Shown here: positions 1-3,000 of the stretch, in pieces
Numbering within the stretch: position 1 is the first letter of the stretch
Layout: every line of letters begins with the position of its first letter
Assembly: GCA_034717975.1 (NCBI GenBank)
Contig: JAYEMF010000118.1
Span: 1 to 33,077 of the forward strand
Direction of reading: 5' to 3'
Source of the DNA: Campylobacterota bacterium
GTDB taxonomy: Bacteria > Campylobacterota > Campylobacteria > Campylobacterales > Sulfurimonadaceae
DNA length: 33,077 bases
Program-made: the position numbers

Positions 1-3000
1 GATATGCTGCATGCTTTCAAGCTCTTCGGCCGAAACGGGCTGCTCGATCAGGGTGATGTTCAGATCGCTGATGGCTTCAATGATCTCCAAGGTTTCCGCT
101 TCGCTCCATGCCTGATTGGCATCAATCAGAAGCTCGGCATCGGGCAGAGCTCTACGAACAGCACGAATACGGTCACTGTCCTTCCCATCTTTACCGCCGA
201 CTTTGATCTTTAAAATATCAAATCCACTCCTTATCGCCTTTTCAGCATCTTTCGCCATCTGTTCCGGTGCGTTCAGGCTGATCGTGACATCAGTGCTCAG
301 GGGATGCTGCCGGCCACCGAGATAGGTATAGAGGGGTTGATCGGCTTTTTTGGCAAAGAGGTCATAGAGGGCGATGTCGACAGCGGCTTTGGCACTGCTG
401 TTACTTTTACAGCTTGCGTGCAAAACTTCCTGGGCCTCATCTATGGAGTGAAACGGATGGTGCAGCAGGCATGGTGCGATAAGTTCACGGATGGTCAATG
501 TGATACTCTCCTGGTCTTCACCTGTGATCGCTTTGGTCGGAGGGGCTTCACCGATTCCGCACAGTCCCTCTTCGGCAAAGAGTGTAACGCGTACAAATTC
601 GACGGCATTAACATGGCGAAGGGCAGTGATAAAAGGGGTTTTTAACGGAATGGACTCTTCTGTTATCTGCATATCGACAATAGTCATGCGGCGATCCATT
701 GCAAAGTGTACCCGACCAGAAGGCCGCCGAAAGTACCGATGAGGTAGCCCATAATGGCCATTAAAACGGCTACCCCGATCAGGGCTCTGTTGTATGCCGC
801 AGCCAGAATGGGCGCGGAGGCGACACCGCCTATGTTGGCCAGTGAAGCGATTCCGATACTGAAAAGATCGAGTCTGAAAAGTTTGGCAGCCACGACCATG
901 ACAGTGCCATGGATGACGAGGATCAGCAGACCGGCCAAAAGATAGAGCGGGACTTCGGCAAATCCGGCGAAATCGGCACGTGAACCGATGAGTGCAACGA
1001 GAAGCAACAGCATGGTTGAAGCGATCTCGGTTGAACCGTTCATTTTGCCAAGCGGTGTATAAGCTCCGACAAGTCCGGCAAAGGTTGCGATCATCACCAT
1101 CCATGTCGTCTGGCTCAGGCCGTCAAGCTGCAGGGCGATCATCTGAGCAAGGAGAGCGACGATCAGAGAGATAATGAGCAGCAGCCAGTAACGTTTTGGC
1201 CCGATACTGCAGGCACATCCCAACTCACTGAATGTTTCACTGTTGGCCAAGGCCTTTGTCCATCGGTTGAAAGCCGGGGCCACACGGACCAGTGCCAGCA
1301 GCAGGATAACCCAAAAGGTGTAATCGACCGCATCGGTCACCAGCGCATACCCCATCATTGTCTCGCTGACATTGAGAGCTGAACCGACAGCGAGCATATT
1401 GGCGGTCCCTCCCATCCAGCTGCCGGTCAATGCGGCAAAAAGTCCCGCTTCATCCGCACTGAATCCGAAGAGCCAGAAGATGGCGAGAAAGGCTGATCCC
1501 AAGGAGATGACCGCTGTAGTGTAAGCGATCAGAAGCGGCCGCCCGAGCTTTACAAATTGACGCAGGTCGACCTGCAGCAGCATTAAAAAGAGCATAGCGG
1601 GAAGAAGGTTGTTCTTGGCGGTGGCGTAGGCTCCATTGATAAGGTCGTTCTTTATCCATAGACCCGACTGCGAAAGGATCATGGCACTCATGTAGATGAG
1701 GACGACGGCCGGCAGATAGGTAAAGAGATTTTTTGTTTTCTCCTGACGCTCCAGTATGCCAAAAAAGGCTGCGATGGTAGCGATACTGATCAGATAGAAG
1801 AGGGGTGTATCGATCATTTACAGGGTGCAGCTTTCAGTTTGGGAAACTGAGTGCGAAGCTGATCCATAAAGCGTGCACCGGGATCATGCTTCAAGGTGCG
1901 ATAGTTGTCGTCTTTTTCCAGCCAGAGCGGATGGTCCTCAAAACAGCGATACTCATGATGGCCGACGAGATAGGTGAGGGTGGTGTGTTTTTTTGCCAGA
2001 TAGCTGATGAGATCTATATTGGCTTGCAGCTGCTCAGGAGTAAGATTGTCTACCAGCCCTTCGCCGCCGACATTTTCAATGCCGATACTGCTGTAGTTCA
2101 GCCCGATTACATGCCGTGCCATCGTGGTCTCATCCATCAGGCGATAGACCGTTCCGTCTCTGTCGACCATAAAGTGGGCTGAAACATTCAGTGCAGAGGC
2201 ATTGGCGATATCGGGCCGGTCGGTCGGGAGTGTTTCGCTGATAAAACGGGCGTAGGAGTCATCAAGGTTGTCAATGGCCGTATAGTGAATAAGGATTATC
2301 CTGGGTGTGATTGAAATGTTCTCAGGGTAAAGGCCATAATGCTCTTCAATGTATGTTTTTGTCAGAGCAGTCCGTTTCTCTGCAAAAGGGATAAGTTTGT
2401 CAGTGATTTCGACACCATTTAGGCAGGCAATGGCAATGATAGGGAGCAGAAAGAGTTTTAACATGATGTATTGTACAGGATTTGTATGGCAAAATGGCTT
2501 TAAGGATGGTTATAGATGCTCTACAACTTTCAATTCGCTTTCTGGTATCTGTTTCTCGGCGGAATACTTACCTATCTGGCATGGGGGTTTGTTGTGGCAT
2601 TTGAAATATTATTGGCGATGAACGGATCGCAATGGGCGATTGAGTGGATTCGAAAACACTACCGTTATGAAGTGCTTTACCGGGAAGTGATGGTGTTTTA
2701 TCCGATGATCTGGCTGGGTTATCTCTTTTTGGAAATTCTGCCGCATAAGCTTTTTGGTATGGAAAAGACACCGCTGAATCTCGATGCACTGTTTGAAGAG
2801 CTTTTTGAAGATAAATAAACGTTGTTTAATGTGCACACTATATAATTAGAAACCATGGAAAATCAAGTGAACAATCCTTTTGCGAATGTTGTATTAAGCC
2901 CTGAAGCCAAGCGCCTGGCCAATGCAATTTACAACACTTATATACAGGAAAAATATCCCTACATTGACATTCCGGTTAAACGGTTATATCAGATGTTCTG

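What a model noticed while it worked through the whole genome (the two positions that open the first line are those of the whole stretch)
1..2464. DUF819 as candidate importer of the peptide half of recycled murein
A DUF819 membrane protein is co-transcribed between an exported AmpD-type amidase and an L-Ala-D/L-Glu epimerase. This context, common in the order, points to DUF819 as a transporter for murein-derived L-Ala-D-Glu peptides in genomes without AmpG or Mpp/Opp recycling genes.
Evidence so far: g02018 Amidase_2, g02017 DUF819, g02016 epimerase 45% to the S. denitrificans L-amino acid-D/L-Glu epimerase, overlapping stop/start codons. DUF819 is near the epimerase family in 199 order genomes and 1749 of 14215 genomes with both, and near Amidase_2 in 102 order genomes of 172 overall. 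The two closest relatives keep epimerase and/or amidase beside it; the same amidase family also fronts the anmK operon in 3 loci. Listings for DUF819 (10 papers) and yjcL (8 of 12 listed) show no link to recycling.
(Added by a program. Inside this text positions count along the whole contig: contig position 1 is position 1 of the stretch shown here. "Call 12" and the like, gene names such as g00115 and contig names such as C1 are that model's own, and its searches are not shown. The text may have been shortened before it was handed on; [...] marks where a part breaks off. The agent that wrote the report below was given it as the finding of a first reader that could run no searches.)

Follow-up and report, generated by a model that had tools for sequence, protein, structure and literature searches.

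The report
Likely cell-wall dipeptide importer (DUF819)
An uncharacterised membrane carrier in a marine sulfur-cycle bacterium sits between an exported cell-wall amidase and a dipeptide epimerase and is gained and lost with that epimerase across related genomes, so it most likely imports the cell-wall fragment L-Ala-D-Glu, a job not found in the papers searched and not yet tested in the lab.

Summary
Confirmed: amidase (2464-1814), DUF819 (1817-684) and epimerase (687-1, ending on C16) form an ATGA-overlapped chain. DUF819 models as an elevator carrier (AspT Z 25.1; CitS). It tracks the epimerase: 22 of 41 relatives have both, 19 neither; in 131 order genomes all 21 with DUF819 have the epimerase, and the 3 epimerase-only copies are broken or cut off. 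The partner recurs in Fusobacterium and 29 of 39 informative metagenome loci. Four proteins fuse DUF819 to a DvLysin-type gamma-D-Glu-mDAP endopeptidase. All fall in one DUF819 clade; the other clade's four loci lack murein genes. This genome has exported routes to the dipeptide (DvLysin-like, Pgp1/Csd4), a PepD-like peptidase, and a separate nagZ-SSS symporter-anmK-amgK-murU operon. Best reading (0.7): the wall is cut outside; DUF819 imports L-Ala-D-Glu. Corrections: an Opp/Dpp-type ABC system is present; AmpG was found in none of 41 genomes, so it does not discriminate; the amidase is not AmpD. Transport is untested. The scan noted this idea before on other DNA (e1-7281379 and others); the fusions, co-loss profile and NagZ-amidase/SSS arm were not in those notes as shown.

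The parts
1814..2464 (-). Exported zinc N-acetylmuramoyl-L-alanine amidase (Amidase_2), 216 aa, hydrophobic N-terminus; His60, His169, Asp194 (zinc) and Glu130 conserved
   Evidence: Pfam E 5e-19; residues conserved in at least 90% of 28 aligned homologs, with signal-like N-termini in the homologs; best PDB hits T7 lysozyme, other amidases and AmpDh2. The residue roles are recalled from AmpD.
684..1817 (-). DUF819 secondary carrier, 377 aa, CPA/AT reentrant (elevator) fold with two glycine-rich hairpins (G136-G137-x-x-N140; N328-x-G330-G331) and conserved D162, W134, W169, H303; proposed L-Ala-D-Glu importer
   Evidence: Pfam E 7e-77; model pLDDT 94.7; AspT Z 25.1, rmsd 3.9 A over 345 residues; CitS TMq up to 0.72; conservation
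1..687 (-). 5' two-thirds of a cytoplasmic L-Ala-D/L-Glu (dipeptide) epimerase of the enolase superfamily; the rest is on contig C16 (L001:5515-5009)
   Evidence: Pfam MR_MLE_N/C; R24, K160, K162, K267 and D320 invariant in 62 of 62, and D189, E215, D240, D318 conserved in at least 90%; the same-genus ortholog's best PDB hit is the B. subtilis epimerase 1jpm, E 1.5e-67
2465..2515 (.). 51-nt intergenic gap shared with a divergent gene; presumed promoter region of the chain
   Evidence: ORF coordinates; promoter scan no better than shuffles, so not shown

Best explanation
[quoted passage not shown] Steps: (1) outside the cytoplasm, a DvLysin-like lipoprotein and the Pgp1/Csd4 carboxypeptidase cut gamma-D-Glu-mDAP (genes shown; activity inferred from characterised homologs). 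(2) The exported amidase frees the dipeptide from MurNAc (active site shown; activity inferred). (3) DUF819 carries the dipeptide in (inferred). (4) The epimerase makes L-Ala-L-Glu, and a PepD-like peptidase splits it (genes shown; activity inferred). The sugar half goes separately through nagZ-SSS symporter-anmK-amgK-murU where that operon exists (genes shown; transport inferred). The coupling ion (Na+ or H+) and symport versus exchange are open.
For: Profile: DUF819 and epimerase present together in 22 and absent together in 19 of 41 relatives, and 20/5 within the family. In 131 order genomes, 21 of 21 DUF819-positive genomes have the epimerase, also when on different contigs. The 3 epimerase-only cases: frameshift in G144, N-truncation in G097, contig end in G081. 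G022, a one-contig genome, keeps only a DUF819 remnant and has no epimerase match. Context outside the family: Fusobacterium epimerase-DUF819; 29 of 39 metagenome loci with at least 3.2 kb downstream have the epimerase, 19 a DvLysin-type NlpC/P60, 31 either, in several separate branches. Fusions DUF819+SH3_6+NlpC/P60 in 4 proteins, one standing for 35 sequences, with catalytic RDCS/YGWG/PRN motifs and both domains folded. DvLysin cleaves gamma-D-Glu-A2pm (PMC4600125, passages). Pgp1 turns tri- into dipeptide stems (PMC3310789, passages). [quoted passage not shown] Own genome: DvLysin ortholog E 2e-78, M99 next to a Csd6-type gene, PepD-like peptidase; mpl not over cut-off, no LdcA/S66 (131), POT, DgcN or AmpG (27) match. 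The closest fold, AspT, moves Asp and Ala (PMC12462496, passages).
Against: No transport data. Kin are not independent, and a linked pair can be gained or lost in one event (G022 looks like one deletion). 8 of 39 informative clade-I loci have neither epimerase nor endopeptidase nearby. A family-5 ABC system of unknown substrate could import dipeptides in most of these genomes. An 866-aa M14 peptidase without a signal peptide is in the genome (no MpaA match at E 1e-5), so cytoplasmic cleavage of longer peptides is not excluded. The epimerase ortholog passes no curated equivalog cut-off, and a Thermotoga ortholog prefers other dipeptides (PMC5808125, passages). M99 does not co-vary with DUF819 (15/7/14/5, p 0.74). 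The putative pocket residues are shared with clade II, which lacks the murein context in 4 of 4 loci.
Confidence: 0.7

Rival explanations
1. DUF819 is a broad di/tripeptide nutrient carrier; murein dipeptide is only one cargo and the epimerase handles many D-containing dipeptides.
For: A clade-II member in Xanthomonas sits behind an S9 peptidase, near OPT and POT peptide transporters. N. meningitidis carries an M15 peptidase-DUF819 cassette (PMC12671195, passages). The pocket residues are family-wide. TonB receptors flank some loci.
Against: In clade I the recurring partners are murein-specific: amidase, DvLysin-type endopeptidase, D,D-carboxypeptidase, NagZ, MurQ, MurR-type regulator. Arg24 is invariant as in YkfB.
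Confidence: 0.12
2. It imports longer stem peptides (tri- or tetrapeptide), which are cut in the cytoplasm.
For: The amidase alone would release whatever stem is present. A signal-less M14 peptidase exists in the genome. The fusion's linker is unresolved (pLDDT under 50 at 401-421), so the side on which its endopeptidase works is inferred.
Against: The unfused endopeptidases next to DUF819 start with signal or lipoprotein-like peptides. No Mpl over cut-off and no LdcA match. The only NlpC/P60 match is a lipoprotein-like ORF. Solved relatives of this fold carry small acids.
Confidence: 0.07
3. It moves a free amino acid released from the wall (mDAP, D-Ala or D-Glu), or exchanges one for another as AspT does, possibly outward.
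For: The best fold match is an amino-acid antiporter. lysA, alanine racemase and D,D-carboxypeptidase occur beside some loci.
Against: The strict partner is a dipeptide epimerase, which needs a dipeptide in the cytoplasm. No DgcN for D-Glu catabolism. NhaC-family carriers in some loci are alternative candidates for amino acids.
Confidence: 0.07
4. It imports anhydro-MurNAc or a muropeptide, standing in for AmpG.
For: CitS-like folds carry carboxylic acids. NagZ, MurQ and a GlcNAc kinase flank a few loci. An earlier scan note reports a DUF819 coupled to anmK (e1-2489546, not checked).
Against: anmK was found in only 11 of the 22 DUF819-positive relatives. An SSS symporter, not DUF819, lies next to anmK here and, within the 1.5-kb flanks, in 6 of 10 relatives.
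Confidence: 0.02
5. The linkage is inherited synteny without functional coupling.
For: An unrelated exonuclease stays within the locus in 63 of 80 family-level loci.
Against: The partners recur in other lineages with different gene order, fuse, and co-occur when unlinked.
Confidence: 0.02

Closest known systems
B. subtilis ykfABCD beside dpp; B. cereus ykfBC with oppA; E. coli mpaA-ycjG-pepD murein-peptide catabolism
   Same: Same chemistry: gamma-D-Glu-diamino acid cleavage, L-Ala-D-Glu epimerisation, dipeptide hydrolysis. For B. cereus, extracellular cleavage and import of L-Ala-gamma-D-Glu were proposed (PMC2954226, passages).
   Different: The neighbouring importer is a single secondary carrier, not an ABC system. 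An exported amidase is in the chain, and the endopeptidase is DvLysin-type (acts on whole wall) and encoded elsewhere.
AspT (AAEx family, PDB 8y1x) and CitS (2HCT family, PDB 5a1s/5xat)
   Same: Ten helices plus two reentrant hairpins, elevator-type fold (PMC8396727, passages). By motif spacing, N328 matches CitS Asn401, a Na+ ligand (PMC4718727, passages; inference).
   Different: No sequence match to any PDB chain. No AspT soluble domain. By the same spacing, CitS Arg402 is Ile329 and Asp407 is Ser334. DUF819 instead has conserved D162, W134, W169 and H303.
AmpG-AmpD-Mpl recycling (E. coli) and the AnmK-AmgK-MurU shortcut (Pseudomonas; recalled)
   Same: The genome encodes NagZ, AnmK, an AmgK-like kinase and MurU.
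   Different: No AmpG match and no Mpl over cut-off. The amidase is exported, so peptide and sugar would enter separately, by DUF819 and an SSS symporter.
DgcN-DgcA D-glutamate pathway
   Same: DgcA is in the same epimerase family (NCBIfam hit).
   Different: No DgcN (DUF1611) match in the genome. The original paper could not be read, so whether its gene cluster includes a DUF819 is unknown to me.

Membership tests
DUF819 (PF05684) | Full-length match above the gathering score | tested here: met
   259.5 bits against 27, positions 4-377 of 379
CPA/AT reentrant-fold secondary carriers | Inverted repeat with two glycine-rich reentrant hairpins; structural match to solved members | tested here: met
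   AspT Z 25.1, rmsd 3.9, 345 aligned; OAD-beta Z 17.9; CitS Foldseek E 3e-6; G136 and G330 invariant
CPA/AT reentrant-fold secondary carriers | Demonstrated ion- or solute-coupled transport | not testable with these tools
   Needs an uptake assay
AAEx (AspT) family | Central soluble domain and sequence homology | tested here: not met
   377 aa with only a short central loop; no PDB sequence hit at E 10; no Asp-Al_Ex Pfam hit
2HCT (CitS) family | Substrate arginines Arg402/Arg428 and the Na2 aspartate | tested here: inconclusive
   Judged only by motif spacing (Ile329, Ser334); no residue-level structural alignment was available
L-Ala-D/L-Glu epimerase (YkfB/YcjG) | Two catalytic lysines (YkfB K162/K268), three Mg ligands | tested here: met
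   K162 and K267 invariant in 62 of 62; D189/E215/D240 at least 90%; YkfB numbering from PMC5808125 passages
L-Ala-D/L-Glu epimerase (YkfB/YcjG) | Arg24 and C-terminal DxD for dipeptide recognition (roles recalled) | tested here: met
   R24 and D320 in 62 of 62, D318 at least 90%; aligned to 1jpm
L-Ala-D/L-Glu epimerase (YkfB/YcjG) | Curated equivalog score | tested here: not met
   The same-genus full-length ortholog scores 201 of 500 (Thermotoga model) and 153 of 343 (YcjG model); no B. subtilis-type model appeared in the list
L-Ala-D/L-Glu epimerase (YkfB/YcjG) | Activity on L-Ala-D/L-Glu | not testable with these tools
   Enzyme assay needed
DgcA N-acetyl-D-Glu racemase | DgcN partner in the genome and equivalog score | tested here: not met
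   No PF07755 match; 198.6 of 400 bits for the ortholog
AmpD | Equivalog score; cytoplasmic location | tested here: not met
   25.9 of 143 bits; signal-like N-terminus in the family
Amidase_2 zinc amidases | His/His/Asp zinc site and catalytic Glu | tested here: met
   H60, H169, D194, E130 conserved in at least 90% of 28; Pfam above cut-off
Murein-peptide catabolic module (ykf type) | A gamma-D-Glu-diamino acid hydrolase in the genome | tested here: met
   DvLysin ortholog E 2e-78; M99 E 2e-67; SH3_6 in all 22 DUF819-positive relatives but 34 of 41 overall
Murein-peptide catabolic module (ykf type) | Cytoplasmic dipeptidase PepD | tested here: inconclusive
   310 bits against a cut-off of 343.75
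   Binding protein and permeases present; below every curated OppA/DppA cut-off, substrate unknown

The most novel reading that the evidence does not exclude
Free-living Campylobacterota and several other lineages run an undescribed AmpG-independent 'cut outside, import in parts' wall-salvage system with two unassigned carriers. DUF819 clade I would be the first dedicated secondary carrier for L-Ala-D-Glu, in some lineages tethered to the endopeptidase that makes its cargo. An SSS symporter behind a secreted NagZ-amidase fusion would take the anhydro-sugar. With TonB receptors in other lineages, the module would also let chemolithotrophs and heterotrophs feed on other cells' walls, a route for marine D-amino-acid turnover.
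Probability: 0.4. Interest if true: 0.75.

Novelty: new variant of a known kind. Interest (0 to 1): 0.56.

Why it matters
It gives a widespread unassigned carrier family a specific, cheap-to-test substrate. It also fills the 'unidentified permease' slot of murein-peptide catabolism for bacteria lacking AmpG. If true, the known list of wall-recycling importers gains an elevator-type carrier, with a second candidate (SSS) for the sugar. It would also show how a group with dipeptide-rich walls recovers D-Glu-containing fragments.

Tried and rejected
AmpG absence as the reason for DUF819: 0 of 41 genomes match either way. Pgp1/Csd4 (M99) as co-evolving partner: 29 of 41, no association. DvLysin as discriminating partner: 34 of 41, too common. 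Sequence search of the PDB with the protein and with a 119-row profile: no hit. Viral contigs: no relative. RNA runs: none was listed. Promoter/terminator scan: near shuffle level. The fusion model could not place the endopeptidase relative to the membrane (linker pLDDT under 50, pTM 0.56). None of the 80 metagenome loci showed the in-frame fusion by my reading, so the fusion rests on protein records. Literature searches: DUF819 (10 papers), yjcL, anmK+symporter+peptidoglycan recycling, YkfC+L-Ala-D-Glu+epimerase, dipeptide epimerase/peptidoglycan/transporter/Ala-D-Glu (25 of 97 listed), dgc terms. No listing links DUF819 to murein salvage. I read passages of 2 of the 10 DUF819 papers and none of the yjcL papers. 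No supplements were read; fitness or genome-context tables there could bear on novelty. The dgc paper (ISME J 2023) and the enolase-superfamily epimerase papers were not seen.
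Full report
Observation. The window starts with three minus-strand genes: an Amidase_2 protein (2464-1814), a DUF819 protein (1817-684) and an enolase-superfamily protein (687-1). Both junctions are ATGA overlaps. The third gene runs off the contig; C16 shares an exact 127-nt end and carries the rest, giving 355 aa. Relatives are titled Sulfurimonadaceae, Sulfurimonas and Hydrogenimonas.

The enzymes look intact. The amidase keeps H60, H169, D194 and E130 in at least 90% of 28 aligned sequences, and its homologs start with signal-like peptides (residue roles recalled from AmpD). It is not AmpD (25.9 of 143 bits). The epimerase keeps R24, K160, K162, K267 and D320 in 62 of 62 sequences. 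The same-genus ortholog's best solved relative is the B. subtilis L-Ala-D/L-Glu epimerase (E 1.5e-67), whose catalytic lysines are K162 and K268 (PMC5808125, passages). The ortholog passes no curated cut-off. No DgcN match was found in the genome, which argues against the N-acetyl-D-Glu route.

The carrier. A model from 119 sequences has pLDDT 94.7. It matches the aspartate:alanine antiporter AspT (Z 25.1, rmsd 3.9, 345 residues) and CitS (TMq up to 0.72), in line with the published CPA/AT reentrant, N-out assignment (PMC8396727, passages). In AspT the two hairpins form the substrate pocket and both termini are outside (PMC12462496, passages). Of 93 rows, D162 is kept in 86, W134 and W169 in 89, H303 in 88 and N140 in 92. 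A buried acid suits a peptide amino group, but that is inference. By motif spacing N328 corresponds to the CitS Na+ ligand Asn401, while Arg402 and Asp407 have no counterpart (PMC4718727, passages), so the coupling ion is open.

Is the linkage more than synteny? In 80 close loci the epimerase is present in 66 (62 of the 68 with at least 1.2 kb downstream), adjacent in 51 and ATGA-coupled in 37; the amidase precedes DUF819 in 27. As a control, an unrelated exonuclease is present in 63 but adjacent in 7, so proximity inside the family proves little. Whole-genome profiles are sharper. In 41 genomes, intact DUF819 and the epimerase are both present in 22 and both absent in 19; I set aside two weak non-DUF819 hits (one is a glutamate symporter) and counted the G022 remnant as absent. 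In 131 genomes drawn across the order (overlapping the first set), 21 have DUF819 and all 21 have the epimerase; 107 have neither. The three epimerase-only cases are a frameshift (G144), an N-truncated gene facing an N-truncated dppA (G097) and a contig end (G081). Kin are not independent, and G022 looks like a single deletion. anmK is in 11 of 41 genomes, all DUF819-positive; the amidase in 19, of which 18 are DUF819-positive; M99 shows no association.

Other lineages. A tree of 117 proteins gives two well-supported clades. Clade I holds the window protein, a Fusobacterium protein lying behind an epimerase and four fusion proteins. Clade II holds the Xanthomonas, Vibrio, Persicobacter and Aureibacter loci, none with murein genes in view; the Xanthomonas one follows an S9 peptidase near peptide transporters. 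A metagenome scan centred on a non-Campylobacterota clade-I protein gave 80 loci (best of 494). Of the 39 with at least 3.2 kb downstream, 29 have the epimerase, 19 a DvLysin-type NlpC/P60, 31 either, and 8 neither. The other 41 were too short to count, several loci are near-duplicates, and the loci with neither gene fall in one branch with G094 and G131, genomes that do have the epimerase. In 22 loci annotated, further neighbours include D,D-carboxypeptidase, NagZ, MurQ, a MurR-type regulator, lysA, alanine racemase and TonB receptors. N. meningitidis carries an M15 peptidase-DUF819 cassette (PMC12671195, passages).

Fusions. All 3 hits of the search among longer proteins, and one representative, are DUF819+SH3_6+NlpC/P60 (826-838 aa; one cluster has 35 members). 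The C-terminal half matches DvLysin (E 6e-22) and keeps RDC[ST], YGWG and PRN. DvLysin cleaves gamma-D-Glu-A2pm in wall, muropeptides and free stems (PMC4600125, passages). The unfused sister loci have the same gene order, with an exported endopeptidase right behind DUF819. Both halves fold well; the linker does not. The endopeptidase's products are the dipeptide and mDAP(-D-Ala); the epimerase partner picks the dipeptide.

The rest of this genome (99.9% complete). Present: a DvLysin ortholog with lipoprotein-like start; a Pgp1/Csd4-family peptidase beside a Csd6-type gene (Pgp1 makes dipeptide stems, PMC3310789, passages); a PepD-like peptidase just under cut-off; glutamate racemase; and an operon nagZ-SSS symporter-anmK-amgK-murU. 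Not found: AmpG, Mpl over cut-off, LdcA/S66, POT. A signal-less M14 peptidase of unknown target is also present. In four relatives the amidase is fused to a secreted NagZ directly ahead of the SSS symporter, and in G001 it stands between nagZ and SSS-anmK. The amidase thus sits with either importer, as expected of the enzyme that separates sugar from peptide outside the cytoplasm.

Mechanism. Shown: genes, coupling, intact active sites, carrier fold, co-occurrence, fusions. [quoted passage not shown] I put 0.7 on this, 0.12 on a broad dipeptide carrier, 0.07 each on longer stems and on free amino acids, and 0.02 each on sugar import and mere synteny.

Comparison and novelty. The pathway chemistry is known (ykfABCD, mpaA-ycjG-pepD), and import of L-Ala-gamma-D-Glu after outside cleavage was proposed for B. 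cereus, where an oppA gene lies downstream (PMC2954226, passages). What differs is the carrier type and the split import. I found no paper giving DUF819 this role in the searches (listings; passages of PMC11509177, showed nothing relevant). The ISME J 2023 dgc paper was not available (PMC10845958 and PMC12363236 passages mention only dgcN/dgcA), and no supplements were read. The scan's own notes reached the same reading on other genomes, one with the same three-gene module. I held this reading before looking and treat the notes as leads only; look-ups for the fusion and for the NagZ-amidase/SSS arm returned no note holding all the words. Verdict: real, well supported by comparative evidence, untested; a new variant of a known kind; interest 0.56.

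Noticed in passing
G000:C139 (L115:2828-8324, minus strand): Operon nagZ - SSS-family symporter - anmK - amgK-like - murU; the symporter is a candidate anhydro-MurNAc (or disaccharide) importer in an order where no AmpG was found. This genome's NagZ seems to lack the signal peptide that relatives have.
   Followed up: partly
L134:1474-3174, L143:1474-3138, L144:1474-3198, L145:415-2097: Secreted NagZ (GH3)-Amidase_2 fusion proteins of 555-575 aa directly upstream of the SSS symporter in four relatives.
   Followed up: partly
P0166, P0270, P0271, P0272: DUF819-DvLysin fusions whose linker resembles a leftover signal peptide; they might be cleaved after export.
   Followed up: partly
G000:C47:1571-4165 (L245): 866-aa protein with an N-terminal M14 zinc carboxypeptidase, Ig/fn3-like domains and no evident signal peptide; target unknown.
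   Followed up: partly
L046:3848-5122 and 27 other loci; L176, L205: An NhaC-family carrier lies upstream of DUF819 in 28 of 80 close loci and in two distant murein loci; a candidate for mDAP or lysine uptake.
   Followed up: no
L241:5416-5952 (G022): DUF819 remnant with an internal deletion, abutting arsB, in a one-contig genome with no match for epimerase, amidase or anmK.
   Followed up: yes
L243:103-5285 (G097): N-truncated epimerase head to head with an N-truncated dppA of a dppABCD operon; perhaps a remnant of a Dpp-plus-epimerase unit, or a misassembly.
   Followed up: partly
L004:2598-3884, L007:2734-4026: Epimerase fused to a C-terminal GIY-YIG domain in two relatives; separate neighbouring gene in L018.
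   Followed up: no
window 17386-22334: Two plsX-fabH pairs in tandem; the second plsX ORF (20813-21340) covers only the C-terminal half of the family model.
   Followed up: no
window 4341-7981: Repeat protein, MoxR-like AAA ATPase and DUF2201 metallopeptidase/vWA genes in a row, also seen in relatives' loci.
   Followed up: no
L158:6648-8864, L164:8693-10789, L120:7166-7948, L176:10051-10845: Class-A beta-lactamase-like serine hydrolases, in two loci joined to a PG-binding domain and an S11 D,D-carboxypeptidase, recur beside DUF819-epimerase loci; probably murein-peptide hydrolases.
   Followed up: no
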